This document shows, one piece after another, positions 2,530-53,179 of a stretch of DNA of 59,938 nucleotides. The notes below the pieces were generated by a model, which saw only the letters and a list, made by a program, of their open reading frames with translations, was not told the DNA's origin and searched no databases. Source of the stretch: an uncultured bacterium (GTDB lineage Bacteria > JADJOY01); NCBI GenBank assembly GCA_964450125.1, contig CAYVDO010000002.1, positions 1-59,938 on the forward strand. Direction: 5' to 3'. The position numbers and the translations under genes are program-made. The number at the start of each line of letters is the position of its first letter. Positions within the stretch are counted from its first letter, which is position 1.

Positions 2530-2664
2530 GGGGAAAAGCACGCACGGCACCGAATCCCATCGTGGGCGCCGTACGGGGGCGCCGAGCATAGCCGGTCGCC
2601 CGTCGCGACGCCTCCAGGCTGCGGGTCGGAGCCCACGCCGGGGTGGAATCCCGACGTGGGCTTC

Positions 2665-2709
2665 GAGGAGCCTGTCGGAAAATGTGCTTCGCACGCCGAC
2701 AGGCTCCTC
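2665..2709. other. Perfect 14-bp inverted repeat (gaggagcctgtcgg / ccgacaggctcctc) with a 17-nt loop, directly left of repeat copy A
   Basis: Read directly from the sequence. It shares the gcctgtcg string with the left flanks of repeat copies B and C. Confidence 0.5.
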
Positions 2710-2725
2710 GCTTGATGCTCCCCCG

Positions 2726-2827
2726 CGGGTCTGTTCCAGACCCCCGCCCCGAAAAAGGCGTGACTTTTTCGGGGCCCCACCCCCAAGTCGGCTCGGCTTC
2801 GCTCGCCGATCCTCGCCTTCGGCGAGG
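2726..2827 (+). repeat. Three-hairpin dispersed repeat, copy A
   Basis: H1 gggtctg-ttc-cagaccc (2727-2743). H2 ccccgaaaaa-N8-tttttcgggg (2747-2774). Then the ccccacccccaag motif, and H3 cctcgcc-ttc-ggcgagg (2811-2827). Near-identical core to copy B. Confidence 0.7.
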
Positions 2828-2869
2828 CTAGGAGCGTGTCGGGAACGAATTTCCCGACACACTCCTAGG
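2828..2869 (-). terminator. Stem-loop about 30 nt downstream of the ComEA-like stop codon; possible terminator, but no clear U-tract
   Basis: ctaggagcgtgtcgggaa-cgaa-tttcccgacacactcctagg, a near-perfect inverted repeat. Confidence 0.35.
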
Positions 2870-3224: not shown

Positions 3225-3541
3225 GAGTGGACCTCGTGGCGAGGGCACCGCGGCGTGCGGCGCCTCGGGTTGGGGATCGTTCGGCTCGGCAGCGCATCCC
3301 GCTGCCTGGCGCCGACCGCTCCCTCACGTCGATGGCTGCCGCCCAGCGCAACCGCCGTGCCGAGCGTGCCCGGCCGCACGCGCCGCCCACACGCAGGCGC
3401 TTTGTCCTCGAAATCTCAGGCCTCTCGCGAGTGCGACCACGCGATGCCTCGGCCGAGCCTCGCCCCGCCGAGCAAGTCACCGCGTCCGGCGAGGCGCACC
3501 GTCTGCGTCGCCGCGGGCGCACCCCATGCGCCGACGGCTCT

Positions 3542-3617
3542 CGCCGCATTCGCGGCGGGCTTCGGGGTGGGTCCCCGGCAGGATTCACTCCGGACGAGGC
3601 GCGGTCTTGGAAAGACC
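3542..3617 (-). repeat. Three-hairpin dispersed repeat, copy F (more degenerate)
   Basis: On the + strand: cgccgc-attc-gcggcg (3542-3557), ggggtggg (3564-3571), a ggattcactcc loop as in copy D, and ggtctt-gga-aagacc (3603-3617). It lies 10 nt downstream of the polyprenyl synthase stop, in sense orientation. Confidence 0.55.
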
Positions 3618-3627
3618 CCGTGGCAAC

Positions 3628-4602
3628 TCAGAATCCGCGGCTCGACGCGAAGCGTGCGAGCCGCTCGAGCGCTCGCCGCCCTTCGCCACGGGGCAGCACC
3701 GAGAGCCGACCCAGCGCCAACTCGACGCACCGCTGCGCCCGATCGTGGGCGTAGTGAAAGCCGTCGTAACGCTGGATGAGCTTGACCATCGTGGCGAGCT
3801 CGCGTGCCCCGCGCCGCTCGCCGGCGAGCAGGCCGCGGATCCGCTCCCCGTCACCCGGTGAGGCGAGCCCGAGCGCGGCAATGACCGGCAAGGTGTACTT
3901 GCCGTCGCGGAAGTCGGCGCCGCGCTTGGCGGCAAAACGCGCATCGTCGGCGACGTAGTCGAGCACGTCGTCGGCGAGTTGGAACGCCATGCCGAGGTCG
4001 AGCCCGAACGCGTGCAGCGCGAGCTGCACGTCGTCGGGTGCGTTCGCCGCCACCGCCGGTGCCCACGCACAAGCGCCGAAGAGCGCTGCGGTCTTCTTGC
4101 GGATGATGTCGAGGTACTCGTCCTCGGTCTCGGTGGGGCTGTAGGACTCGGCGAGCTGATGCACCTCGCCCTCGGCCATGGCGTTGGTGGCCTCGGCGAT
4201 CATGCGCACCAGCCGTGCATCGCCCATCCGCGCCAGCAACACGGACGACAGGCTGTAGAGGTAGTCGCCCACCAGCACGCTCGCGGCGTTGCCGAACACG
4301 CGGTTCGCCGAGGGGCGGCCGCGCCGCACGGTGCCCTCGTCCACGACGTCGTCGTGGAGCAGCGTGGCGGTGTGGATCATCTCCACGACCACGCCCAGCG
4401 TCACCACGTTGGGGCCGCGAAGACCGACGGCGCGGGCGCTCAGGAACACGAGCGCGGGGCGAATGCGCTTGCCGCCGCCGCCCAAGAGATACCGGCCGAC
4501 CTCGGGGATGAGCCGGACGTCGTTCAAGACCACGCGCTCGAGCTCTTGCTCGAGTGCCAGGATCGGTCGCCGAATCGAGGGAAACGCGTCGTCGAATTTC
4601 AC
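3628..4602 (-). CDS. Polyprenyl diphosphate synthase (IspB-like, long-chain trans-prenyltransferase)
   Basis: ORF 3628..4809 with DDxxD motifs (LLHDDVVDEG and FQLADDVLDY). Proposed GTG start at 4602 (VKFDDAFPSIRRPI) gives about 324 aa and avoids overlap with the divergent gene at 4676. Confidence 0.9.
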   Translation of the reverse strand: MKFDDAFPSIRRPILALEQELERVVLNDVRLIPEVGRYLLGGGGKRIRPALVFLSARAVGLRGPNVVTLGVVVEMIHTATLLHDDVVDEGTVRRGRPSANRVFGNAASVLVGDYLYSLSSVLLARMGDARLVRMIAEATNAMAEGEVHQLAESYSPTETEDEYLDIIRKKTAALFGACAWAPAVAANAPDDVQLALHAFGLDLGMAFQLADDVLDYVADDARFAAKRGADFRDGKYTLPVIAALGLASPGDGERIRGLLAGERRGARELATMVKLIQRYDGFHYAHDRAQRCVELALGRLSVLPRGEGRRALERLARFASSRGF

Positions 4603-4675
4603 GGGGCGCGAAGGATAGCAGGGCCGCGAACCCGCCAGCGCGCATCGTCGCTCGCACTCGGCGTATGCTCGGCGA

Positions 4676-18211: not shown

Positions 18212-18520
18212 GGGCGAGACTGAAACGAGCAACCTATTGAAATCACGCTGCCTTCTCGCCCGGAACGCCGCAACAAACGCGTTGTGACGACGGGAGGACC
18301 GCCCTCACGCGCCGCACCGCGATCGACCCCGATTATTCTGGCTGTCACGATGCCGCTTGCAGGCATGCGCGAGACCTCCCCGGTCGCCTTCGGGGGCCAG
18401 CCCGCAAGGGTGGCTCTCTGGAGCTCGGGGCCTGCATCGCACTCCACGCGCCGGGGTCAGCCGATTCGCGCCGAACACCCTGTGGGGGTGGCCGCTCGTC
18501 ACCCCCCTCGAGCGCCCTCT

Positions 18521-19135
18521 TCATGGCGATTCAGCCATGGAGGTGAGCGCTTCGGTCAGTACCTGGAAGCTCCGCGACCGATTGCGCGCCGGATCCATGT
18601 GCGCCGCGATTGCCCGAGCCGCCTCGATCTTGCGCAATCCACCCGTGAAGTACCCTGCGTCCTGAACAATGCGTTCGAACGCCTCCCACGTGCCGCCGCG
18701 AATTGCGTCGGGTTCACGGAATCGAGCCTTCGTCGGGATGCCTGCGGAGACCCGCGGATAGGCGGCGCGCACCGCATCCCAGTCCCCGAAATACCAGGCC
18801 TCGAGCTCTTCGCACGCAATCCGATTGACAACGGTCCAGTGCGTGCTTCGCCCGCGAGGGCGCAGCCCCGCGTCACGCGCGATCGCGTCGAGGTCTGCCT
18901 TGAGCCTGTGACAGTCGTCGGCATCCCGATCCACGACGACCACGATTCGCCAGCCCGCCGGCAGCCAACCGGCGTAGCCGCGCAGTCGCTCGGGAAGGCA
19001 GCCCACGAGGTCGCTCTTCCCCTGGTGTGTGAGAATCCGGAACGACGTTCCGCCGATCAGCTTCGGTAGCAGCACACGGAGCGCGGCCTCGGCCGACTCC
19101 TCCTCGACGATGACTTCGAGGTGTTCGACGGTCAT
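18521..19135 (-). CDS. DUF4276-like protein with Toprim-like acidic signature (E ... DxD)
   Basis: Start [19 protein letters not shown], whose ATG overlaps the ATPase stop (ATGA at 19132-19135). Also [11 protein letters not shown] and [10 protein letters not shown]. Length 204 aa. Confidence 0.75.
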
Positions 19136-36341: not shown

Positions 36342-37700
36342 ATGGATACTGCCTACGTCGTCGACACCAGCGTCTTGGTCCACGATCCTCGCGCGCTCAA
36401 CGCCTTCCGCAAGACCACCGTCGCCATCCCCATCTTCGTGGTGATGGAGCTCGACGACCTCAAGAACAACCGCCGCTTCGAGGTCGCCGCCGCCGCGCGA
36501 GTGGCTTCACGCTTCATCTCTTCGCTGCGCGAGTTCGGGAACCTCTCGGGCGAAGCCGGCGTGCACCACCCCGACCTCGGCACCACCTTCCACATCATCT
36601 CGGACGGCAACGGCGGGCTCGACCACCTGAGCGAACGCACCAACGACCGCAGCATGGATCTCTTGATCCTCGCCTCGGCGCTGGCGCTCAAGCAGCGCGA
36701 CCTCTACAAGCGCGTGGTGCTCATCAGCAAAGACGTGAACCTGCGCATCCTCGCCGATTTCGAAGGCCTGGAAGCCGAGGACTACGAGACTGATCGGGTC
36801 GAGCTACGCGACCTCTACACCGGCTACCGCATTCTCGAACGGCAATCGGTGCCGTCCGTGGACGAGTGGGGAGACGAGAGCGTGCTCGTGCCCCGCGAGC
36901 TGGGCCTCGCCGATCTACACCCCAACGAATTCGTGGCGGTGAAGAGCGGGCCCGCCGAGCGCGTGTGGCGCTATCAGTCGGTGACCGGACAGCTCGAGCC
37001 CGTCGCCGCCGAGTTCCGCGAGCTCGCCGACGTGCAGCCGCGCAACATCGAGCAACGCATGGCGCTCGATCTGCTGCTCGACCCGCGGGTGAAGCTGGTG
37101 ACGCTGGTGGGTAAAGCCGGCACCGGCAAGACGTTCCTGGCCCTGGCCGCCGCGCTGGCGCAGGTGCAGAAGGGCAAGAAGCGGCGCTCCTACGAGCGCA
37201 TCCTGCTCTCGAAGCCGGTGGTGTCGATGGGCCAGGACGTGGGCTATCTGCCCGGAGACTTCGACGCCAAGATGCAGCCGTGGATGACGTCGTTCTTCGA
37301 CAACTTCGATCAGCTCATCGTGAGCGACGGCGCCGCCTCCGGCAAAGGCGCCACCCGAGATACCAAGAGCTGGGAGTACCTCTTCCACTCGCGCCAGCTC
37401 GAGGTGCAGGCGATCCACACCATCCGCGGGCGTTCGATCTCGTCGGCGTTCATGCTCATCGACGAGGCCCAGAACTTGACGCCGCACGAGGTGAAGACCG
37501 TCATCACCCGCGCCGCCGACGGCACCAAGGTGGTGCTCGCCGGCGACCCGTACCAGGTGGACAACCACTTCCTCGACCAGCACTCGAACGGGCTGGTCTA
37601 CGTGACCGAGCGGCTCAAGAGCTCGCCGATCACGGGCACGGTGTTCTTCTCGCGCGGCGAACGCAGCGAGCTCGCCGAGCTGGCCGCGACGCAGCTCTGA
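36342..37700 (+). CDS. PhoH2-type protein (N-terminal PIN domain + PhoH ATPase)
   Basis: PIN segment YVVDTSVLVHDP...VVMELDDL. PhoH Walker A LVGKAGTGKTFLALA and Walker B FMLIDEAQNLT. Confidence 0.9.
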   Translation: MDTAYVVDTSVLVHDPRALNAFRKTTVAIPIFVVMELDDLKNNRRFEVAAAARVASRFISSLREFGNLSGEAGVHHPDLGTTFHIISDGNGGLDHLSERTNDRSMDLLILASALALKQRDLYKRVVLISKDVNLRILADFEGLEAEDYETDRVELRDLYTGYRILERQSVPSVDEWGDESVLVPRELGLADLHPNEFVAVKSGPAERVWRYQSVTGQLEPVAAEFRELADVQPRNIEQRMALDLLLDPRVKLVTLVGKAGTGKTFLALAAALAQVQKGKKRRSYERILLSKPVVSMGQDVGYLPGDFDAKMQPWMTSFFDNFDQLIVSDGAASGKGATRDTKSWEYLFHSRQLEVQAIHTIRGRSISSAFMLIDEAQNLTPHEVKTVITRAADGTKVVLAGDPYQVDNHFLDQHSNGLVYVTERLKSSPITGTVFFSRGERSELAELAATQL

Positions 37701-37703
37701 TTT

Positions 37704-37803
37704 CCGGGGGGCTTTTCAAGCCCGCGCCCGCCCGGAGTGAATCCGGGCGGATCCCACCCCCGAGTCACTCGCTTCGCTCGTGGCGTCGCGCTGCGACGCG
37801 CCA
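37704..37803 (+). repeat. Three-hairpin dispersed repeat, copy D
   Basis: Starts 4 nt after the PhoH2 stop. H1 gggctt-ttc-aagccc (37709-37723). H2 ccgcccgga-gtgaa-tccgggcgg (37728-37750). Then atcccacccccgagtcactcgcttcgctcg (near-identical to copy E) and H3 gcgtcgc-gct-gcgacgc (37783-37799). Confidence 0.7.
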
Positions 37804-37930
37804 CGTGGCGAATCCCTTCGTTGCCCGGTCCGGCATCCACATCGGGCTCTTCGAGCCGCCTGGGAGTGTAGGAGCGCCCGTGAGGCCGCCCGGGATCGGG
37901 ATCGACCGGCGCGCGCCCCACCGCCGCCGC

Positions 37931-38446
37931 TCAGCTCTTCGCCGGTGGCTTGCGCTCCAGCAGACAGAAACCGTGACCGAAGGGATCGGCGCAAGACGCT
38001 GCCGAGCCGTGCGCGGGGTTCTCGAAGATCTGCTCGACCGCGCCGCCCGCGTTCCGAACCCGCGCCATCATCCCGTTCAGCTCGTCGACGTGGAAGTCCA
38101 GGTGCACGGGTGTCCAGTGACGATCGTAGCGCCGGCTTTCCGCGGTCTTCGCTGACGGATGCGAGCCCAAGCTATCTGGACCGCTCTCGCACGGCGCTGC
38201 CGGCATACGCCTTTCCTTGCGCACGTTACGCCGGTGCCTGGCGGAGGACAACCCCGCTATCTGGGCGAAGATAACGCGATGGTGTGCTCGGGCCGGGGCA
38301 GCGCTCACTACCACCCCACCACGGGACCGTCGTAGGTTCGCACCCAGCGGCCTCCAGCGAGCGGCGTCGGCGAGATCGGGCCGGAAGCGGGCCGCGACGA
38401 GCTGCGCGTGACCGAGGGTGACTCGCGGGCGCGAGCGGTTGCGCAT
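37931..38446 (-). CDS. VOC/glyoxalase-like family protein; start uncertain
   Basis: C-terminal HLDFHVDELNGMMARVRNAGGAVE...ADPFGHGFCLL. Candidate start at MRNRSRPRVTLGHAQLV (38446) or MPAAP (38206). Confidence 0.5.
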   Translation of the reverse strand: MRNRSRPRVTLGHAQLVAARFRPDLADAARWRPLGANLRRSRGGVVVSAAPARAHHRVIFAQIAGLSSARHRRNVRKERRMPAAPCESGPDSLGSHPSAKTAESRRYDRHWTPVHLDFHVDELNGMMARVRNAGGAVEQIFENPAHGSAASCADPFGHGFCLLERKPPAKS

Positions 38447-38500
38447 CCGAGGGGCGATTCGGCGGTGCCGCACGCTGCGGGGGGGAGACGAGCCCGGCGT

Positions 38501-39592
38501 CTACGGCACGAATGCGAGGAACAGGTAGGACGCGAAAAGCACGAGGTGCACGGCGCCTTGCATCACGTACGTGCGGCCGGTGGTGAGGGTGACGGCGCTC
38601 ACCAGGAAGGTGATCGCGAGCATCACCATGTCCTTGGGTGCGACGCCGAGCACGAGCGGTAGGTCGAGGACGATCGAAGCGGTCACGACGACCGGCACGG
38701 TGAGGCCCACGCACGCGAGGGCCGAACCGATGGCGAGGTTCATGCTCGACTGAAGCCCGTTGGCGCGCGCGGCGCGCACGGCGGCCCACGTCTCCGGCAA
38801 GAGCACCAGCGCGGCGATGATGATGCCGACCACGGCGCGCGGGGCGTCGGCGGCGGCTACCGCGTTCTCGATGGTGGGCGAGAGCTTTTTCGCGAGGCCC
38901 ACGACGGCCACCAGCGCGAGCAGGAGCAGTCCGAAGCTTGTCCAAGCCTGGGCGTTGGTGGGTGGCGCGGCGAAATGCTCGGGCCCGCCGTCGCCGTCGG
39001 GTGGGAGGAAGTAGTCGCGGTGGCGGACGGTCTGGCTGAACACGAAGATCGCCCACAGTGCCGCCGAGGCCACCGCCACGAACGCGCGCTGCGACACGCT
39101 GTACGTGGGCCCCGGGGAGGTGATCGTGAACGCCGGCAGCACCAACGTGAGCGTGGCCATGACCATGAGCGCCGCGAGGCCAGCGCCAGCGCCTTCCACG
39201 CGGAACGTCTGCTCGCGGTGCGCGAGCCCGCCCACCCACACGCAGAGCCCCACCACGCCGGTCGAGATCAGCATCACCGCCGCGTAGATCGCGTCGCGCG
39301 GCAAGGTAGCCATGTCGTCGCCACCGGCGAGCATCATCGAGAGGATGAGTGCCGTCTCGATCGCGGTGACGGCGAGCGCGAGCACCAGCGTCCCGAACGG
39401 CTCGCCCACGCGATGGGCGACCACCTCGGCGTGATGGACCGCGGCGAACACGGCACCCGCGAGGGCTGCACCGCACACCAGCGCCAGCCACGGCGTCATG
39501 GCGATCGCCGCGGCAGCGCCGAGCGAGCCGAGGGCGAGCACGGGAATCAGCCAGGTCCAGAACGGCATCGTCGATCTCACCGGAGCCCGCAA
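38501..39592 (-). CDS. chaA: Ca2+/H+ antiporter (CaCA family, ChaA-like)
   Basis: 11-TM profile. Alpha-repeat motifs ALAVTAIETALILSMM and the second-half equivalent. Confidence 0.8.
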   Translation of the reverse strand: MRAPVRSTMPFWTWLIPVLALGSLGAAAAIAMTPWLALVCGAALAGAVFAAVHHAEVVAHRVGEPFGTLVLALAVTAIETALILSMMLAGGDDMATLPRDAIYAAVMLISTGVVGLCVWVGGLAHREQTFRVEGAGAGLAALMVMATLTLVLPAFTITSPGPTYSVSQRAFVAVASAALWAIFVFSQTVRHRDYFLPPDGDGGPEHFAAPPTNAQAWTSFGLLLLALVAVVGLAKKLSPTIENAVAAADAPRAVVGIIIAALVLLPETWAAVRAARANGLQSSMNLAIGSALACVGLTVPVVVTASIVLDLPLVLGVAPKDMVMLAITFLVSAVTLTTGRTYVMQGAVHLVLFASYLFLAFVP

Positions 39593-40867: not shown

Positions 40868-42319
40868 ATGAAACTCGCGCATCCGCGTGCGCATCACCTG
40901 CCGTACGTTGCAGCCCTGGCGATCGCGTCGTTCGCGTCGTTCGCCTTCGCCCAGGACTCCACGCCGAGTGGAGGCTCGGCCTGGACGCAGCCCATCCGGG
41001 TCGGCTCGGCCGGCTCCGCGTACCTCAACCTCTCGCTCGACGCGCTCTTCTCGGTCGGGACCTCGACCGAAAAGGAGGTGACGTCGCTCCAGCTCGGCGG
41101 ACACGACCCGAGCCAGCGCGGCTTCACCGTCCAGAACGTCGAGGCGGTGTTCGACGGCGCGGTCGACCCGTACTTGAAGGGCACGGCGAACGTCATCTTC
41201 CAACTCGACCCCGAAGGAGAAACCGTCGTCGAGCTGGAAGAGGCCTACCTCGTCACCCAGTCGCTGCCGTGGGACTTGCAAGCGAAGGCGGGCCAGTTCC
41301 TGACCGAGCTCGGGCGCATCAACGGCCGCCATCCGCACCAATGGGACTTCGTGGACATCCCGCTGGTGAACGGCCGCCTGCTCGGCGGCGACGGGCTACG
41401 CGGTCCGGGCGCGCGGCTCTCTTGGCTCATGCCGCTGCCCTTCTACTCGGAGATCCTCGTCACCCTGCAGAACAGCCAAGGCGAGACCGCAGCCAGCTTC
41501 CGCAACGAGAACGAAGGCGAGCCGCTCTTCGGTCGCGTCCCCGAGGACCGCGGCGTGAACGAGCTGGGCGACATGCTCGTGAGCGGCCGCTGGTCGGGCT
41601 CGTTCGATCTCACCGACGACCAGACGCTGGTGCTCGGGGTCTCGGGTGTTTCGGGGCCGAACGCCACCGGCGAAAACACCCACACCCAGATCTACGGCAC
41701 GGACCTCTACTGGAAGTGGAAGTCGCCGCGCGCCGAGCAGGGCTTTCCATTCGCGTCGTTCACCACCGAAGCCATGTATCGACGCTTCCAGGCGGGCGAG
41801 GAGCTCGCGTCGGCGAGCTCCGCCCGCCTGTCGATCCTTTCTCGGGGGTCTGTTCCAGACCCCCGCCCCGCAAAAGGCGCGACTTTTGCGGGGCCCCACC
41901 CCCAAGCCGAGTCGCTTTGCTCGTCGCGCGCCGCTGGCGCGTGCCTCTCGTTGGCAACCGTTGATCACACGGGCGCGTTCGAGAGCACGCCGGAATCTCC
42001 CGACGAAGCGCCGCTGGTGCTGCCGCACGAGACGCTCGAAGACTGGGGGCTCTACGCACAGGCGCTCTACGGCTTCACGCGCGGCTGGGTCGCCGGCGTG
42101 CGCGGCGATTTCGTGGGCGGCAACCGCGGCGCCTTCGACCCCGATCCCGATCGCTCGCGGCGAGTGCGCGTGTCACCGGTGCTCACCTGGTACCCGAGCG
42201 AGTTCTCGAAGCTCCGTCTCCAGTACAACCTCGATCGCGTCGAAGACCGGGCGTACGACCACTCGGTCTGGCTCTCGGCCGAGTTCCTGATCGGCAGCCA
42301 CGGCGCACACAGCTTCTGA
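40868..42319 (+). CDS. Outer-membrane beta-barrel protein of the zinc cluster, carrying an in-frame repeat-element insertion
   Basis: Start MKLAHPRAHHLPYVAALAIASFASFAFA after gggagga. Beta-strand-rich sequence. The C-terminal ...WLSAEFLIGSHGAHSF ends in an aromatic residue. Confidence 0.7.
   Translation: MKLAHPRAHHLPYVAALAIASFASFAFAQDSTPSGGSAWTQPIRVGSAGSAYLNLSLDALFSVGTSTEKEVTSLQLGGHDPSQRGFTVQNVEAVFDGAVDPYLKGTANVIFQLDPEGETVVELEEAYLVTQSLPWDLQAKAGQFLTELGRINGRHPHQWDFVDIPLVNGRLLGGDGLRGPGARLSWLMPLPFYSEILVTLQNSQGETAASFRNENEGEPLFGRVPEDRGVNELGDMLVSGRWSGSFDLTDDQTLVLGVSGVSGPNATGENTHTQIYGTDLYWKWKSPRAEQGFPFASFTTEAMYRRFQAGEELASASSARLSILSRGSVPDPRPAKGATFAGPHPQAESLCSSRAAGACLSLATVDHTGAFESTPESPDEAPLVLPHETLEDWGLYAQALYGFTRGWVAGVRGDFVGGNRGAFDPDPDRSRRVRVSPVLTWYPSEFSKLRLQYNLDRVEDRAYDHSVWLSAEFLIGSHGAHSF
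41826..41950 (+). repeat. Three-hairpin dispersed repeat, copy B, inside the OMP coding sequence
   Basis: H1 gggtctg-ttc-cagaccc (41846-41862). H2 ccccgcaaaa-N8-ttttgcgggg (41866-41893). Then ccccacccccaag and H3 cgcgcc-gct-ggcgcg (41927-41941). Flanks gcctgtcgat and gcgtgcctc are shared with copy C. Confidence 0.7.
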
Positions 42320-44263: not shown

Positions 44264-47047
44264 ATGCCTCCACATCACCCGCTTCGTCTCCGCGCATGGC
44301 TCGCCTTTCTCGTACCGCTGGTCCTCGGTGGCACGAGCGCCAGGGCGGACGAGCTCGCCGAGCGCTTCCCCGCCGACGTCCGCGCGGCACTCGAGGCACT
44401 CCCCGAGCGCTCGCGCCCGGTGGAGCTACGCGCGACTCCGAACGGCGCGCTCTACGCGCTGCTGCCCAACGGCGCCGAGCTCATCGCGCTGGAAAAGCGC
44501 AATGCGCCAGTGGTGAGCGTGCAGGCGTGGGTTCGCACCGGCGCCATCCACGAGCAGGAATGGCTCGGCGCCGGGCTCAGCCATTTCTGTGAGCACCTGC
44601 TCTTCAAGGGCACCACCAAGCGCCCCACCGGCCAGCTCGAGCAGGACATCCGCGGAGGCGGCGGCGACAACAACGCGTACACGTCGAGCGAACGCACCGT
44701 GTACCACGTGACCACCGCAGCCTCGAGCTTCGCCACTGCGTTCGACGCGCTCTCCGACATGCTCATGAACGCCACCTTCCCGCCCGAGGAGGTGAAGAAA
44801 GAACACGGGGTGGTGCAGAAGGAGATCGAGCGCGCCAGCGACGACCCCGACCGCGCGCTCTACGATCAGTTCGAGGCCACGCTCTACCAGGCGCACCCCT
44901 ACCGCGTTCCCGTGCTCGGCTACGCCGACCGCTTCGCGCGAGTGACGCGGGAAGAGGTCTACGCCTACTACAAGCGCCGCTACAGCCCGTCGAACACGGT
45001 TTTCATCGCCGTCGGCGACTTCCGCGCCGCGGACGCGCTCACGCTCATGGCGAGCACCGTGGCGGGTTGGACGCGAACCAGCATCCCGCCAGCGTTGGTG
45101 CCGAGCGAACCGCCGCAGATCGCCGCGCGGGAGGTGGCGATCTCACACCACCTCGCCAAGGTGCCGAAGATGATCATCGGCTTCCCGACGGTCTCGGCTC
45201 GCGACCCCGATCTCTACGCCCTCGACGTGCTCGCCGGCGTCCTCGGTAGCGGCCGGTCGAGCCGTCTCTACCAGAGCGTCAAGGACCAGCAGAAGCTGGT
45301 GCTGGAGGTCTCTGCGTTCAACTACACGCCCCTCCATCCGGGCTATCTCGCGGTCTCGGCCGCCGCGGAGGCCGGCAACCTCGAGGCCGCGCGCGGCGCG
45401 ATCCTCGCGGTGCTGGAGAAGGCGAAGACCGAACCACCCGAACCCGAGGAGTTGGCGCGGGTCAAGCGCGACATCGAGGCGAGCCGAGTCTTCAGTCAGA
45501 TGACCGCGGAGGGTGTCGCCGAACAGCTCGGCAACGACTGGCTCACCACCGGCGATCTCGATTTCTCGCGGCTCTACGCCGAGCGGATCCAGCGCGTGAC
45601 CGCGGACGACGTCGTCGCCGCTGCGCAGAAGTACATCGACCTCGACAAGCTCGACGTGGTGGTGATGACACCGCCCGAGAGCGAGAGCAGAGCGCAGCCA
45701 GCTGCGCCCAGACAGACCACGAGCGGTGCCGAGCCCAGCACCGCGAGCCTCGCCGCCATCGACGCGCTGAAGGCGATGCCCGAGGTCGCCGGTGCCAGCG
45801 TCCAGCACGTGGCCGGCACCGAGGTCTACGAGGTGCAGCTCACGAGCGGCCTGCGCGTGATCGTGCGCGAGGACGCGTCGATCCCTGCCGTCCACGGCGC
45901 CGTCGTGGCGCTCGGCGGCCAGCGCTCCGAGCCTGCAGACAAGGCGGGCGCCGGCAATCTGGTGGCACACATGCTCGATCGCGGCAGCGCCGCCTTCACC
46001 AAGGCCGAGCTGGCAGCCAAAGTCGAAGGCCTGGGCGCCGAGCTGAGCCCGTTCGGTGGACGCAACACCTTCGGCATCCAGTTCCGCTGCCTGAAGGAGG
46101 ATCTACCCAAGATTCTGAGCCTCGCGGGCGAGAGCTTTCTCAGGCCGGCGTTCCCCAGCGACGAGCTCGAGGCGCTGCGCAAGGAAACGCTCGCACAGAT
46201 CGACGAGCAGGAATCGAACCTGGCGAGCCTGGACCTCAAGATTCTGCGCGCCACGGTGTTTGGCGATCACCCCTATGCGCGGCCGGTGATCGGCACCAAG
46301 GACACGATCGCGAGCGTGACCGCGGCCGAGCTGGCGAAGCTGCACCGCGCGTGGACGCGCCCCGAGACCAGCGTCGTTACCTTCTCCGGCGACGTTCGCA
46401 GCCTCGATGCCGTGCGCTGGGTGCTCGACTCGTTCCGGAGCTTCCCGCTCGCCGCCGACGCTCCGATCGTGCCGCCTGCGCTGGTGGCGATCGATGCTCC
46501 GCGCAGCGCGGAGCGCGAGGTCGCGGGTCTCACCGGTGCGGCGATCGCGCTCGGCTTCCAGACCGTCAAGATCGGCGACCCCGACCGCGAGGTGCTCGAC
46601 GTCACGGACCGCTTGCTCTCGGGCCTCGGCGGGCGGCTTTACGACGAGCTGCGCGAGAAACGCGGCATCGTGTATCAGGCGTTCGCACGCAACGAGAGCC
46701 AGCTCGACGCCGGATTCTTCCTGTTCTTCGCGCAGACCGATCCCAAGAACCTGGAGCGCACCAAGCAGATCTTCTGGGGCGAGATCGAGAAGCTCGCGCG
46801 CACGCCGGTGCCGGCCAAGGAGCTGGATCAGGTGAAGAAGTATTTCGCCGGCACCGAGGCCATCGAGCTGCAAGACCAAGGACAGGTGGCGCTCCGCATG
46901 GCGCTCTCGGTCCTCTACGGCGAGGGCATCGAGAACGTCTTCACCCGTCACCAACGGATCGAGCGGGTGACGGCGGCCGACATCCAGGCTGCGGCGCAGC
47001 GCTACTTCCTAGCCGAGCGCTCCGCGCTCGCCACCGTGCGTCCCTAA
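44264..47047 (+). CDS. Secreted tandem M16 (pitrilysin-family) zinc peptidase
   Basis: Start MPPHHPLRLRAWLAFLVPLVLGG (ATG at 44264). Inverted zinc motif HFCEHLLF. Two M16 active/inactive domain pairs, about 927 aa. The upstream part of ORF 43514.. is out-of-frame overlap with znuB. Confidence 0.9.
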   Translation: MPPHHPLRLRAWLAFLVPLVLGGTSARADELAERFPADVRAALEALPERSRPVELRATPNGALYALLPNGAELIALEKRNAPVVSVQAWVRTGAIHEQEWLGAGLSHFCEHLLFKGTTKRPTGQLEQDIRGGGGDNNAYTSSERTVYHVTTAASSFATAFDALSDMLMNATFPPEEVKKEHGVVQKEIERASDDPDRALYDQFEATLYQAHPYRVPVLGYADRFARVTREEVYAYYKRRYSPSNTVFIAVGDFRAADALTLMASTVAGWTRTSIPPALVPSEPPQIAAREVAISHHLAKVPKMIIGFPTVSARDPDLYALDVLAGVLGSGRSSRLYQSVKDQQKLVLEVSAFNYTPLHPGYLAVSAAAEAGNLEAARGAILAVLEKAKTEPPEPEELARVKRDIEASRVFSQMTAEGVAEQLGNDWLTTGDLDFSRLYAERIQRVTADDVVAAAQKYIDLDKLDVVVMTPPESESRAQPAAPRQTTSGAEPSTASLAAIDALKAMPEVAGASVQHVAGTEVYEVQLTSGLRVIVREDASIPAVHGAVVALGGQRSEPADKAGAGNLVAHMLDRGSAAFTKAELAAKVEGLGAELSPFGGRNTFGIQFRCLKEDLPKILSLAGESFLRPAFPSDELEALRKETLAQIDEQESNLASLDLKILRATVFGDHPYARPVIGTKDTIASVTAAELAKLHRAWTRPETSVVTFSGDVRSLDAVRWVLDSFRSFPLAADAPIVPPALVAIDAPRSAEREVAGLTGAAIALGFQTVKIGDPDREVLDVTDRLLSGLGGRLYDELREKRGIVYQAFARNESQLDAGFFLFFAQTDPKNLERTKQIFWGEIEKLARTPVPAKELDQVKKYFAGTEAIELQDQGQVALRMALSVLYGEGIENVFTRHQRIERVTAADIQAAAQRYFLAERSALATVRP

Positions 47048-47060
47048 CCGGCTGCTGAAA

Positions 47061-47166
47061 GAGGCACGCGCCAGCGGCGCGCCGACGAGCGTAGCGAGTC
47101 TGCGGGGGTGGGGCCCCGCAAAAACCGCGCTTTTTGCGGGGCGGGGGGCTTGAAGAGCCCCCCGAG
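47061..47166 (-). repeat. Three-hairpin dispersed repeat, copy C
   Basis: On the + strand: cgcgcc-agc-ggcgcg (47067-47081), gggggtgggg, ccccgcaaaaa-N6-tttttgcgggg (47114-47141), gggggct-tgaag-agccccc (47144-47162). Flanked by gctgctgaaa (47051) and tttcagcagc (47205). Confidence 0.7.
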
Positions 47167-47207
47167 GAAGCATCGACAGGCTCGAAAGACTCGCTCCGGC
47201 GAGCTTT

Positions 47208-48134
47208 TCAGCAGCCTGCTGACGCTCGGCGGGCGCGGATGCGCAGGTAGACGTCGTCGCCGCGCCGGAAGCGCTCGAACTTCTCGCTCTCGGCCACCGC
47301 CGCGAAGTACCTCACCTGGGATGCGACGAATCGCGGCAGGCGCAGACGCTCGATGCGGCTCGCCTTGGCGCTACTCGTGAGGCGAAGCGCCTCGATGACG
47401 TTCGCGGTCATGTCCTCGACCGCGACGTCGTCGAAGGCTCCGGATCGCTCGATCGAGCCCCGAAACGCGGCGACGCGGCCGGTGGCGCGGAAGTCGGCGA
47501 TCAAGAGGTGCCCGCCGGGCTTGAGCACGCGTGCAGCTTCGCCCAGGAACGCTCCGAAGTCCGGATACGTGTGCGAGCTCTCCACGCTCAGCACCACGTC
47601 GAACGCTCGATCGGCGAACGGCAGATGCTCGGCGTCGCAACGTTCGAAGCGCAGCCCGGGAATCGGCGGATGGTGCGCGTGGGACGCGCGCACGGCCGCA
47701 CCAGAGAGATCGACGGCGACGTAGCGCCGTGGCTCGAGGTTTCGCGCCAGCCAGGCAGCGCCGCCGCCCAGCCCAGCCCCGACCTCCAGCACGTCGAGTC
47801 CCGTGATCGCCAGTGCGCCCGCATCCGTGGCCGTCCGCTGATAGAGCTCCAGCGCCACCTGGCTCACGAGATCGAGGGCTTGGCCGCGTGCCGGCGCATC
47901 GCCACCGTCGAGGCGAGCGTAGCCGTAGTTGAGGAACGGCCCGCAGACCCCAGTCGCACCGACGAGCGCCGTCACGCCGTCGTAGAAACGTCCATAGAGC
48001 GCCCGCGATTCGTAATGCAGCCGACGGCTCAGGTCGAGAAGCGACCACCACCATCCGAAACGCAACGCTGCCCACCAAACGCGAGTGGGCGCGATCGGGT
48101 GCGACAACGTGGCGACGAGATGCGGCTCGATCAC
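47208..48134 (-). CDS. Class I SAM-dependent methyltransferase
   Basis: VLEVGAGLGGGAAWLA SAM motif. Also FDVVLSVESSHTY and LKPGGHLLIADF. Proposed GTG start at 48134. Confidence 0.8.
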   Translation of the reverse strand: MIEPHLVATLSHPIAPTRVWWAALRFGWWWSLLDLSRRLHYESRALYGRFYDGVTALVGATGVCGPFLNYGYARLDGGDAPARGQALDLVSQVALELYQRTATDAGALAITGLDVLEVGAGLGGGAAWLARNLEPRRYVAVDLSGAAVRASHAHHPPIPGLRFERCDAEHLPFADRAFDVVLSVESSHTYPDFGAFLGEAARVLKPGGHLLIADFRATGRVAAFRGSIERSGAFDDVAVEDMTANVIEALRLTSSAKASRIERLRLPRFVASQVRYFAAVAESEKFERFRRGDDVYLRIRARRASAGC

Positions 48135-52887: not shown

Positions 52888-53071
52888 CTTCCGGCGGGAT
52901 TGACTCCGTGTTGATCTCTGCGCTCTGCAGCAACGAGCTACCGCGCCACCGCGCGACGCAGAGTGGAGCCCCGCGGGGATTCACACGAATCGCGGTAGGG
53001 CCGAGAAACGGACCCGATCGTGCTCCGGCGTCGAACACTCGGCACCTCGGTCTCCACGCGCGCCTTCCATC

Positions 53072-53171
53072 CCACCGCGAGCCAGCGGCGAGCCGCGAGC
53101 GAAGCGAGTGACTCAGGGGTGGGACCCATCGCGGCTTCGCCGCGATGGGCGGGGGGCTGGAACAGACCCTC
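53072..53171 (-). repeat. Three-hairpin dispersed repeat, copy E
   Basis: On the + strand: cgagcgaagcgagtgactcaggggtggga (matches the reverse complement of copy D), cccatcgcggc-ttc-gccgcgatggg (53125-53149), gggctg-gaa-cagaccc with one bulge (53154-53169). It ends 9 nt from the CSLREA gene stop, in sense orientation. Confidence 0.7.
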
Positions 53172-53179
53172 GCAGAAAC

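What the first reader, a model, noticed from the sequence alone, without database searches (positions are those of the whole stretch)
37704..37803. Dispersed ~100-nt three-hairpin repeat family (six copies) with preserved pairing but different stem sequences, mostly starting just after stop codons
Copies:
- A 2726-2827 (+)
- F 3542-3617 (-)
- D 37704-37803 (+)
- B 41826-41950 (+)
- C 47061-47166 (-)
- E 53072-53171 (-)

Shared architecture, in order:
- H1, a G-rich hairpin: gggtctg/cagaccc in A and B, gggggct/agccccc in C, gggctt/aagccc in D, ggtctt/aagacc in F.
- H2, a 9-11-bp hairpin whose stem differs completely between copies: ccccgcaaaa/ttttgcgggg in A, B and C; ccgcccgga/tccgggcgg in D; cccatcgcggc/gccgcgatggg in E.
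- A conserved single-stranded CCCACCCC(C) motif, followed in D and E by gagtcactcgcttcgctcg.
- H3, a third short GC hairpin.

Complementarity is kept while the stem sequences change, which suggests selection on structure in RNA or ssDNA.

Placement: the H1 end lies 4, 10 and 9 nt after the stop codon of a gene in the same orientation in D (PhoH2), F (polyprenyl synthase) and E (CSLREA protein), and about 45 nt after the methyltransferase stop in C. I do not recognise this as a described REP, MITE or Rfam family.
Basis: seen in the sequence. Interest (0 to 1): 0.7.

Follow-up and report, generated by a model that had tools for sequence, protein, structure and literature searches.

The report
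Hairpin-rich mobile repeat behind stop codons
The six look-alike ~100-base stretches are copies of a previously undescribed small mobile DNA repeat of an uncultured myxobacterial lineage; it lands, in a fixed orientation, right behind the stop codons of genes, so it is a new but fairly ordinary kind of genomic parasite, with no sign so far that it is a functional RNA.

Summary
A profile and a covariance model each find exactly the six copies in the window. The model finds 134 copies in 97 stretches from six related uncultured Myxococcota genomes. Hairpins H1, H2 and H3 covary strongly (93% of cells paired against 76% shuffled; 27 distinct fully paired H2 stems).

- A carries two flanking palindromes (about 205 nt).
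- C has terminal inverted repeats flanked by CTAA/CTGA.
- B is a 177-nt in-frame insertion in an outer-membrane receptor gene.
- E has a broken H3.

A sister genome has empty sites at B, C and D, so the family was mobile recently.

Of 100 copies, 42 start within a few bases of a same-strand stop codon. The stop codons belong to the host: stop-type usage matches the background, and the PhoH2 protein end is unchanged. The bases before the stop are biased (T at -2, C at -1). Stop codons make up 42% of CTGA sites outside genes.

There is no excess of G:U over A:C, no U-tract and no Rfam match.

Verdict: a new MITE/REP-like mosaic repeat with a stop-codon-like (YTRR) target. An RNA role is not shown, and the transposase was not found.

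The parts
37701..37805 (+). Copy D, basic unit. Layout: leader TTTCC 37701-37705; H1 37706-37723; H2 37728-37750 (CCGCCCGGA/TCCGGGCGG); CCCACCCCC 37753-37761; linker GAGTCACTCGCTTCGCTCG 37762-37780; H3 37780-37804. It starts directly after the PIN-PhoH (PhoH2) stop TGA at 37698-37700. Similarity to another copy runs on to about 37837.
   Evidence: orthologous sites
2664..2868 (+). Copy A, composite. It consists of palindrome P1 (2664-2710), then leader and core (2711-2827), then a second P1-like palindrome (2828-2868). It is antisense to both neighbouring genes. It is 97.6% identical over 210 nt to a copy in a CAYUSL01 contig.
3510..3627 (-). Copy F, a degenerate basic unit. It starts directly after the polyprenyl synthase stop TGA (3630-3628), with the spacer GTTGCCAC. 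H2 is imperfect and the fold z-score is only -0.5.
41795..41971 (+). Copy B, a 177-nt (59-codon) in-frame insertion in the outer-membrane receptor gene 40868-42319. It is flanked by the 6-nt direct repeat CGGGCG. The nearest homologues, including the syntenic gene of MAG STL-UNK1, lack it.
47044..47222 (-). Copy C, inverted-repeat type. The inverted repeats are at 47048-47062 and 47204-47218 (CAGGCTGCTGAAAA), flanked by CTAA (47044-47047) and CTGA (47219-47222). The TAA of the M16 peptidase is the left flank. The methyltransferase stop (47210-47208) lies inside the right inverted repeat.
53035..53179 (-). Copy E. It consists of the leader GTTTCTGCGA (53179-53170), the core, and a subfamily-specific 3' extension (..GGTGGGATGGAAGGCGCGCGTGGAGACCG..). 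It starts directly after the TAG (53182-53180) of the TSP3-repeat protein gene. The H3 pairing is replaced by a direct repeat.

Best explanation
This is a family of small, non-coding, non-autonomous mobile DNA repeats. It resembles MITEs in mobility and the REP/BIME mosaics in make-up. It is confined to a narrow clade of uncultured Myxococcota.

Anatomy (shown): the shared core of about 115 nt runs as follows.
- A pyrimidine-rich leader of 5-12 nt.
- H1, a G/C-rich hairpin.
- H2, a hairpin whose stem differs widely between copies.
- A constant unpaired CCCACCCCC followed by RAGTCGGCTCGCTNCGCTCG.
- H3 in most copies.
The core occurs alone or packed together with other small palindromes.

Mechanism (inferred): an unidentified enzyme supplied in trans inserts the unit in one orientation directly 3' of a short stop-codon-like target. 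The target is YTRR, most often (T)CTGA. In several copies this target is repeated at the other end of the element. Insertions inside genes are removed by selection unless they keep the reading frame, as copy B does. Among the remaining harmless target sites, about 40% are the stop codons of genes. That is why about 40-50% of copies sit, in sense orientation, a few bases behind a stop codon.

Hairpins (inferred): they are most likely needed at the DNA level. They could be recognised by the mobilising enzyme, or kept palindromic by copy-to-copy conversion and self-templated correction. When transcribed they form a structured 3' UTR, but no RNA function is shown.
For: Family and abundance:
- 134 covariance-model matches in 679 kb from CAZYWA01, CAYUSL01, JAXLQJ01, JADJOY01 and CAYMQR01, plus a diverged member in JAYVXK01.
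- Six copies in 60 kb of the window.
- Only 66 metagenome contigs carry the linker motif, 57 of them from one sample.

Mobility:
- The 21-kb syntenic stretch of STL-UNK1 has no copy, where the window has D, B and C.
- Empty site for C: GTGCGTCC-CTGA-CGTC. Filled site..CTAA-[inverted repeat...inverted repeat]-CTGA...
- B is a clean 59-codon insertion flanked by CGGGCG.
- At the polyprenyl synthase stop the element is present in 2 of 4 genomes. In L203 it is flanked by GTTCTGA on both sides.
- Ten C-type copies have 15-nt inverted repeats with YTRR on both flanks.
- Five of ten long-type copies repeat their own 5' flanking tetramer at the 3' end, including one CTGG/CTGG pair.

Stop-codon link:
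- 42 of 100 copies start at -3 to +9 nt from a same-strand stop. In metagenome contigs that largely overlap the CAZYWA01 copies, 34 of 64 do, 18 of them at exactly 7 nt.
- Stop type matches the background (34/7/1 against 392/62/17, p=0.67).
- T at -2 is enriched (p=6e-6) and C at -1 is enriched (p=0.003).
- PhoH2 ends at the same residue with or without the element.
- Stop codons are 192 of the 453 CTGA sites outside genes, which is 42%.
- The 3' end of the element shows no such peak.

Structure:
- 18 of 23 pairs show compensatory changes; 93.4% of cells are paired against 75.8% in shuffles and about 50% when partners are slid.
- G:U and A:C mismatches are equal.
- No U tract follows the hairpins and there is no Rfam match.
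Against: - No transposase was found. There is no multi-copy ORF family in the 94 loci that hold copies.
- The basic unit has no clear terminal inverted repeat.
- The flanking direct repeats are short and of uneven length (4, 6 and 7 nt). They are missing in about half of the long-type copies, so they could be partly chance or part of the element's own end.
- The 3' junction of D could not be resolved.
- A cut-and-paste enzyme would not normally fix orientation at a 4-bp target. Yet the leader end, never the other end, abuts the stop (10 of 10 in the long type). This needs either a strand-specific mechanism or selection at the transcript level.
- TAG and TAA stops are used as often as expected, which fits a loose target but also fits selection for being next to a stop.
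- The covariation comes from paralogous copies that share ancestry.
Confidence: 0.7

Rival explanations
1. The core works as RNA. It would be a portable 3'-UTR module that, placed just behind the stop codon, protects the upstream mRNA from 3' exonucleases, ends transcription without a U tract, or tunes translation termination. Copies would be kept next to stop codons, in sense orientation, because of this function. Mobility would only be the means of spread.
For: - Two thirds of copies are in sense orientation to the gene upstream of them, and 42% abut its stop.
- All ten long-type copies abut a stop in sense orientation.
- Stop type does not matter.
- H1, a strong G/C stem, starts 3-16 nt after the stop, within the stretch a terminating ribosome covers (own knowledge).
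- The hairpins covary and the predicted folds are more stable than shuffles, with z from -2 to -5.
- At the PhoH2 stop the element is kept in four species, each with a different compensated H2 stem.
Against: - G:U mismatches are not in excess over A:C, as would be expected for selection on one RNA strand.
- About 31% of copies are antisense to the gene upstream of them, and 18 lie antisense between co-directional genes.
- There is no U tract.
- The closest sister genome lacks the element at the sites of D, B and C without visible replacement.
- The base bias inside the last sense codon points to DNA target choice.
- The share of copies at stop codons is what target availability alone predicts.
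- One copy lacks H2 altogether, and E-type copies lack H3 pairing.
Confidence: 0.2
2. The basic unit, which lacks terminal inverted repeats, is moved as single-stranded DNA by an HUH (Y1) transposase of the IS200/IS605 or REP-associated (RAYT) type. Such an enzyme recognises hairpins and inserts, in one orientation and without duplication, 3' of a short target (here YGA or CTGA). This is a sub-hypothesis about the enzyme and is compatible with the best explanation.
For: - The basic unit has no terminal inverted repeat; its boundaries are -10..-14 to +100..+108.
- Hairpins lie near both ends.
- Placement is strictly oriented 3' of TGA/TAG, or of CGA in copies away from genes.
- A CTGA lies at the 3' end of the long type, partly inside a conserved stem, as if it belonged to the element.
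- Pairing is symmetric with respect to strand.
- The sense strand is the one exposed in transcription bubbles and on the lagging-strand template (own knowledge).
Against: - H1 and H3 do not resemble each other, whereas the end hairpins of IS200/IS605 elements do (own knowledge).
- There is no conserved GTAG as in REPs (alignment A3).
- Both orientations occur within 60 kb.
- The direct repeats at B, L203 and the CTGG/CTGG copy look like target duplications.
- No Y1 transposase gene was seen, though whole genomes could not be searched.
Confidence: 0.3
3. The copies are integron-type attC sites or remains of gene cassettes: structured recombination sites that follow each ORF.
For: Structure is conserved while sequence varies, the size is 100-140 nt, and the position is right after ORFs in the ORF's orientation.
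Against: - The neighbouring genes are syntenic housekeeping genes, not cassettes.
- Copies lie on both strands and inside a gene.
- There are three separate hairpins, not one long imperfect one.
- The RYYYAAC/GTTRRRY core sites are absent from the alignment.
- No Pfam integrase domain was found in the nine flanking proteins scanned.
Confidence: 0.02

Closest known systems
REP / BIME mosaic repeats of Enterobacteria and Pseudomonas (REPINs, moved by RAYT transposases; PMC2817692)
   Same: These are short, G/C-rich palindromic units present in high copy number. They lie mostly at the 3' ends of genes and combine with other motifs into mosaic clusters. They are transcribed as parts of 3' UTRs. 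Many lie within about 15 nt of stop codons (the last point is from own knowledge of E. coli work).
   Different: There is no conserved GTAG head. The unit is a fixed series of three different hairpins plus a constant unpaired C-rich linker, not a single palindrome or an inverted pair. The 5' end abuts the stop codon precisely and in one orientation. Some forms have terminal inverted repeats and flanking direct repeats. No RAYT gene has been identified.
Bacterial MITEs such as Correia (Neisseria), RUP (pneumococcus), Nezha (cyanobacteria) and ERIC/RU elements (PMC2759123)
   Same: Size is 100-200 nt with no coding capacity and many copies. Presence and absence differ between close genomes. The C-type copies have terminal inverted repeats and short flanking repeats. 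Copies are occasionally found inside genes in frame. The target is a rare TA- or stop-like tetramer (own knowledge: IS630 uses CTAG, IS5 uses YTAR).
   Different: The basic and long forms lack convincing terminal inverted repeats and insert in one orientation only. The same core is carried by at least five different outer arrangements. H2 behaves as an exchangeable hairpin.
Rickettsia palindromic elements (RPE)
   Same: They are hairpin-forming repeats of 100-150 nt that can sit in frame inside protein-coding genes, adding a peptide segment. Copy B does this by adding 59 residues to an outer-membrane receptor.
   Different: In-frame copies are the exception here: the gene caller placed 2 of 123 copies inside a gene in sense orientation (B is the one confirmed against homologues) and 2 in antisense. 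Most copies are extragenic, behind stop codons.
Mycobacterial interspersed repetitive units (MIRU)
   Same: They are intergenic repeats whose ends coincide with the stop or start codons of the flanking genes. Tandem arrays occur, as seen here in L157, L123 and L163.
   Different: MIRUs are direct tandem units carrying small ORFs that couple translation within operons. The present element is hairpin-rich, mostly single-copy at a site, and frequent between convergent genes.
IS200/IS605-derived palindrome-associated elements (PATE)
   Same: They have no terminal inverted repeats, carry hairpins near the ends, and insert in one orientation 3' of a short fixed sequence.
   Different: The end hairpins here are unlike each other. 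Some copies show target-like duplications. No TnpA or TnpB partner was seen.

Membership tests
MITE (non-autonomous cut-and-paste element) | Small size, no coding capacity, many dispersed copies | tested here: met
   Units are 115-205 nt. There are 134 copies in 679 kb, and stem-length differences rule out a conserved ORF.
MITE (non-autonomous cut-and-paste element) | Terminal inverted repeats | tested here: inconclusive
   The C-type has 15-nt inverted repeats (10 copies), and the A-type ends in CTAGGAG..CTCCTAG. The basic, long and E-type units have no clear terminal inverted repeat.
MITE (non-autonomous cut-and-paste element) | Target-site duplication | tested here: inconclusive
   - C: CTAA/CTGA against an empty site CTGA.
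- B: CGGGCG on both sides.
- L203: GTTCTGA on both sides.
- Five of ten long-type copies repeat their flank tetramer.
- Two of ten C-type copies have an exact 4-bp repeat.
- Over all copies the excess over permuted pairs is weak: 0.45 against 0.34±0.05.
MITE (non-autonomous cut-and-paste element) | Presence/absence differences at orthologous sites | tested here: met
   D, B and C are absent in STL-UNK1. The site of F is filled in 2 of 4 genomes.
MITE (non-autonomous cut-and-paste element) | An autonomous partner element with matching ends | tested here: not met
   No repeated ORF family lies next to copies in the 94 loci, and no long repeat extends beyond +250 nt. Whole genomes could not be searched.
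REP / REPIN (RAYT-mobilised) | A single 20-40-nt imperfect palindrome with a conserved GTAG-type head | tested here: not met
   The conserved unit is a series of three different hairpins with a CCCACCCCC linker. No GTAG column is seen in alignment A3.
REP / REPIN (RAYT-mobilised) | A RAYT gene flanked by the repeats in the same genome | not testable with these tools
   Only fragments of the MAGs were fetched, and none of the called ORFs is multi-copy.
IS200/IS605-derived element | Oriented insertion 3' of a fixed tetra- or pentanucleotide, without duplication | tested here: inconclusive
   Placement is oriented 3' of TGA/TAG/CGA. However, the target is loose and some copies show duplications.
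Intrinsic (Rho-independent) terminator | A G/C-rich stem followed by a U tract | tested here: not met
   No terminator-like site at any copy in 36-55 kb, and no T run after H1, H2 or H3.
Integron attC site | R''/R' core sites (RYYYAAC..GTTRRRY), one long imperfect hairpin, cassette arrays next to an integrase | tested here: not met
   There are three separate hairpins, the neighbours are housekeeping syntenic genes, and copies lie on both strands.
Any Rfam RNA family | A covariance-model match | tested here: not met
   The gathering-threshold scan of the whole window gives no hit at the copies. Permissive scans of C and D give only chance-level hits far below each family's threshold.

The most novel reading that the evidence does not exclude
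The core is a mobile, self-spreading 3'-end module that works as RNA. By settling 3-16 nt behind whichever stop codon ends a gene, it would give that gene a structured 3' UTR that alters mRNA stability, termination or ribosome release. The strict sense orientation of the leader end would then be kept by selection on the transcript, not by the insertion mechanism. Under this reading, gene 3' ends in this lineage are shaped by a transposable RNA structure.
Probability: 0.15. Interest if true: 0.65.

Novelty: new member of a known kind. Interest (0 to 1): 0.4.

Why it matters
- The family shows how a small mobile repeat can come to sit behind stop codons without any RNA function. A target that resembles a stop codon, combined with loss of insertions inside genes, gives the observed share: 42% expected and 42% seen.
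- It is a caution for scans that read conserved pairing with changing stems as proof of a structured RNA. Palindromic mobile DNA gives the same signal.
- The window also shows what such repeats do to genes. One copy adds 59 residues to an outer-membrane receptor. Another removes 11 residues from a methyltransferase and supplies it with a new stop codon.
- For annotating these uncultured Myxococcota, masking a family that occurs about once per 10 kb would help assembly and gene calling.
- If the orientation bias proves to be selected at the transcript level, the family would become more interesting.

Tried and rejected
- **First genome pattern.** CCCACCCCN{5,12}TCGCTNNGCTCG was too loose: most of the 111 loci were chance matches, and the profile search sorted them out.
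- **Source contig.** The exact-sequence lookup of PhoH2 found nothing.
- **Orthologues among first loci.** No orthologues of the flanking genes were present among the first loci.
- **tRNA or tmRNA origin.** None found.
- **Small ORF starting at the leader ATG.** Rejected, because H2 lengths differ by numbers that are not multiples of three.
- **Stop codon supplied by the element.** Rejected for the abutting copies: stop types match the background, and PhoH2 ends at the same residue at the empty site. It does hold for the methyltransferase next to C.
- **3' junction and target duplication of D.** Two candidate matches to the empty site were both at chance level.
- **General search for flanking direct repeats.** Only a weak excess, inflated by tandem copies.
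- **Transposase next to copies.** Clustering of 542 called proteins gave no multi-copy family of that kind.
- **Long-range pairing of CCCACCCC.** Pairing with a downstream GGGGTG/GGTGGGA is seen in E and F only, so it is not general.
- **GANTC (methylation) motifs in the leader, linker and loop.** The motif is polymorphic (RAGTC) and absent in A, B and C, so it was dropped.
- **Literature.** Searches for a described myxobacterial repeat of this kind found none.

Full report

Yes. The six stretches read as described and align with 70% mean column identity.
- A profile built from them finds exactly six places in the window (E 4e-17 to 4e-27; next hit E 0.75).
- A covariance model built from 52 diverse copies, run with filters off, again finds exactly six (54-127 bits). 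The only other matches are the palindromic H2 read from the other strand, and noise.
- The window has 68.7% G+C.
- The window appears to be a complete public contig. An identical protein is on record on a contig of 59,938 nt.

**2. Where else the family occurs**

Two DNA pattern scans of one genome per species, followed by profile and covariance-model searches, gave 134 copies in 679 kb.
- Five metagenome-assembled genomes carry it: CAZYWA01, CAYUSL01, JAXLQJ01 (STL-UNK1), JADJOY01 and CAYMQR01.
- A Myxococcales MAG, JAYVXK01, has a diverged member with a quite different but still paired H1 (GGGGAGGC/GCCTCCCC).
- CAYUSL01 is probably the same species as the window. PhoH2 residues 1-119 are identical, and copy A is 97.6% identical over 210 nt to one of its contigs.
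- The next relatives by PhoH2 are Nannocystaceae MAGs at 66-69% identity, and they lack the element at that site.
- In 241 million metagenome records, the 25-base linker motif occurs on only 66 contigs, 57 of them from one sample.

The family is therefore abundant (six per 60 kb here) but restricted to a narrow lineage. No Rfam family matches at the curated thresholds or in permissive scans. There are no tRNA-like genes. Literature searches found no description of it.

**3. Anatomy**

All-against-all comparison of about 100 copies with flanks puts the common unit from 10-14 nt before H1 to 100-108 nt after its start. The unit consists of:
- a pyrimidine-rich leader;
- H1;
- H2;
- a nearly invariant CCCACCCCC followed by RAGTCGGCTCGCTNCGCTCG;
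- H3.

- **Copy A.** It is a 205-nt composite with a palindrome of the type CTAGGAGCCTGTCGG..CCGACAGGCTCCTAG on each side.
- **Copy C.** It has 15-nt terminal inverted repeats (CAGGCTGCTGAAAAA), as do nine further copies elsewhere.
- **CAZYWA01 long form.** This form adds a third palindrome and ends in ..TTCACA.
- **Copy E.** Its subfamily has a different 3' extension. Its 'H3' is a direct repeat of GGCTCGC, not a hairpin.
- **H2 as a replaceable part.** One copy lacks H2 exactly, and others carry an enlarged H2. H2 therefore behaves as a replaceable cassette between CGCCCC and GGGGCCCCACCCCC.

**4. Are the hairpins real?**

On the 134-copy alignment:
- 93.4% of cells form standard pairs. The figure is 75.8% when partners are shuffled and about 50% when they are slid by 1-3 columns.
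- 18 of 23 pairs show changes on both sides.
- 492 cells carry double changes, against 143 in shuffles.
- There are 27 distinct fully paired H2 stems, 7 for H1 and 15 for H3.
- Predicted folds of the window copies show the three hairpins with z-scores of -2 to -5. F is decayed, with z = -0.5.

Two cautions apply.
- The copies are paralogues that fall into subfamilies, so the counts overstate the number of independent events.
- Palindromes in DNA can keep their symmetry by self-templated correction and by conversion between copies. The orthologous PhoH2 copy of CAZYWA01 carries that genome's majority H2 variant, which points to such conversion.

**5. RNA or DNA?**

A structure selected in one RNA strand should tolerate G:U but not A:C. 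Across all pairs I count 56 G:U/U:G against 48 A:C/C:A (p = 0.49). The G:U cases sit mainly at two helix-end positions. No hairpin is followed by a U tract, and the terminator scan marks none of the copies. This gives no positive evidence for RNA-level selection, though it does not exclude it.

**6. Gene context in the window**

- **D** starts directly after the TGA of a PIN-PhoH gene.
- **F** starts directly after the TGA of a polyprenyl synthase gene.
- **E** starts directly after the TAG of a gene with thrombospondin type 3 repeats.
- **C** fills the gap between a convergent M16 peptidase gene and a methyltransferase gene.
- **A** lies antisense between two minus-strand genes.
- **B** lies inside a gene. 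The third-position G+C signal continues in the same frame on both sides. The 483-residue product aligns end to end with homologues of 425-431 residues, except for a 59-residue block.

**7. Evidence of mobility**

MAG STL-UNK1 has a 21-kb stretch syntenic with window 36-53 kb that contains no copy at all.
- **Site of B.** The receptor gene reads ..CAAGCA|GGCGCG.. there. In the window a 177-nt block sits at that point, flanked by CGGGCG on both sides.
- **Site of C.** The two convergent genes overlap by 39 nt and the sequence is GTGCGTCC-CTGA-CGTC. In the window it is GTGCGTCC-CTAA-[inverted repeat ... inverted repeat]-CTGA-CGCTC.
  - The insertion removed the last 11 residues of the methyltransferase. 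The gene now ends in a TGA inside the inverted repeat (..RARRASAGC* against ..RARKTSGTHDGERRAIG*).
  - The peptidase keeps its full length.
- **PhoH2 stop.** The element is absent in STL-UNK1 (TGA CCGCCACGG) and present in the window, JADJOY01, CAYMQR01 and CAZYWA01. Three of these four share the minority H1 loop variant CTTTTCAAG. That suggests common descent, yet each has a different H2 stem.
- **Polyprenyl synthase stop.** The element is present in the window and CAZYWA01 and absent in JADJOY01 and CAYMQR01. The CAZYWA01 copy is flanked by GTTCTGA on both sides.

**8. The stop-codon association, quantified**

I used a codon-usage gene caller trained on the same loci.
- 100 copies have an upstream neighbour within 300 nt. 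In 69 it is in the same orientation as the element and in 31 the opposite.
- In 42 copies the profile match starts at -3 to +9 nt from the end of a same-strand stop.
- The spacer from the stop to the G run of H1 is 3-16 nt, most often 7 (TGA GTTTCYC GGGGG).
- In metagenome contigs that largely overlap the CAZYWA01 copies, 34 of 64 copies abut a stop, 18 of them at exactly 7 nt.
- The 3' end of the element shows no comparable peak.
- Between co-directional genes, 28 copies are sense and 18 antisense. There are 27 copies between convergent genes and 9 between divergent genes.

**9. Why stop codons?**

Three results point to DNA target choice plus purifying selection.
- **The stops are the host's own.** TGA/TAG/TAA are used 34/7/1 times against 392/62/17 in other genes (p = 0.67). 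PhoH2 ends at the same residue with and without the element.
- **The bases inside the last sense codon are biased.** T at -2 occurs in 16 of 42 copies against 10% in other genes (p = 6e-6). C at -2 occurs in 2 of 42 against 36% (p = 9e-6). C at -1 occurs in 27 of 42 against 40% (p = 0.003). Copies that do not abut a gene mostly carry YGA or RTG at the same place.
- **The share at stops matches target availability.** In 647 kb, CTGA occurs 1,913 times inside called genes, 261 times between genes and 192 times as C+TGA stop codons. If insertions inside genes are lost, 42% of the surviving CTGA sites are stop codons. This matches the observed 42%. The figure is approximate, because my gene caller misses some genes and the target is looser than CTGA.

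The same YTRR tetramers flank the inverted-repeat forms. They are also repeated at the far end of half of the long-type copies, including one CTGG/CTGG pair. This would explain why different small palindromic repeats pile up at the same spots.

**10. What remains open**

- No enzyme was identified. No multi-copy ORF family lies in the 94 loci, and no long repeat extends from any copy.
- The basic unit lacks clear terminal inverted repeats.
- The flanking repeats are 4, 6 and 7 nt long, and they are absent in many copies.
- An overall test for flanking repeats is only weakly positive (0.45 against 0.34±0.05).
- The 3' junction of D could not be placed.
- The leader end, and never the other end, faces the stop (10 of 10 in the long type). 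A simple cut-and-paste enzyme at a 4-bp target does not explain this. It needs either a strand-specific mechanism, as in the single-strand HUH transposases, or selection on the transcript. I therefore keep the RNA reading as a live minority view.

**11. Comparison with known systems**

In make-up and location the family is closest to REP/BIME mosaics (PMC2817692). In mobility it is closest to bacterial MITEs, including those found inside genes (PMC2759123). It shares in-frame insertion with Rickettsia palindromic elements and coincidence with stop codons with MIRUs (own knowledge for both).
- It fails the REP definition: there is no single palindrome with a GTAG head.
- It is not a terminator, an attC site or an Rfam family.
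- I file it as a new member of the known kind 'small non-autonomous interspersed repeats of bacteria'. Its unusual trait is oriented placement directly behind stop codons.

**12. Verdict**

Its emphasis on RNA structure is not supported.

| Item | Value |
|---|---|
| Best explanation: mobile DNA repeat with a stop-codon-like target | confidence about 0.7 |
| Interest | about 0.4 |

Noticed in passing
window 18358-18441 (+): A match to the Rfam family DUF3800-VII RNA above its curated threshold (39.6 bits against 36.2). It lies in an intergenic stretch next to the ORF at 18521-19135 (-).
   Followed up: no
L188 151-7119 (JAXLQJ010000068) against window 37931-38501: Between the glyoxalase-like gene and the Na/Ca exchanger gene, the sister genome STL-UNK1 carries about 6.5 kb with ten small ORFs (ASCH, TPR, unknown) that the window lacks. 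This is an island or deletion difference next to the site of copy D.
   Followed up: no
L189 about 4440-4620 (JADJOY010000023): Downstream of a truncated copy of the element lies a different tandem repeat of about 150 nt (GGAATCCACGCGCTCGGTAACGCTCACGCTCC...). It appears to be another repeat family of the same lineage.
   Followed up: no
L157 7104-7645; L123 6534-6834; L163 6677-7014; L153 1672-2334; L178 598-885; L142 3036-3319: Tandem arrays of the element together with its flank, with a period of about 165-209 nt and up to three units. In L157 the upstream flank is repeated too, so these look like local tandem duplications and not repeated insertions.
   Followed up: partly
window 2664-2710 and 2828-2868; L121, L171 and others; CAZYWA01 loci: At least three other small palindromic repeat types travel with the core:
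- P1: CTAGGAGCCTGTCGG..CCGACAGGCTCCTAG.
- P2: CAGGCTGCTGAAAAACTCGC..GCGAGTTTTTCGAGCCTG.
- P3: CAGTCGGTTCGGGG-N19-CCCCGAACCGACTG.
They may be separate mobile families that use the same YTRR target.
   Followed up: partly
L037 5781-5875; L022 1676-1817; L096 5547-5691; L166 5071-5214: One copy lacks H2 exactly (..CCCCCC-ACCCCC..), and three carry an enlarged or branched H2. H2 looks like an exchangeable insert between two C/G runs.
   Followed up: partly
window 47208-47222 and L188 15989-16027: In the sister genome the M16 peptidase and methyltransferase genes overlap tail to tail by 39 nt. In the window the insertion of copy C removed this overlap and changed the methyltransferase C-terminus.
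   Followed up: yes
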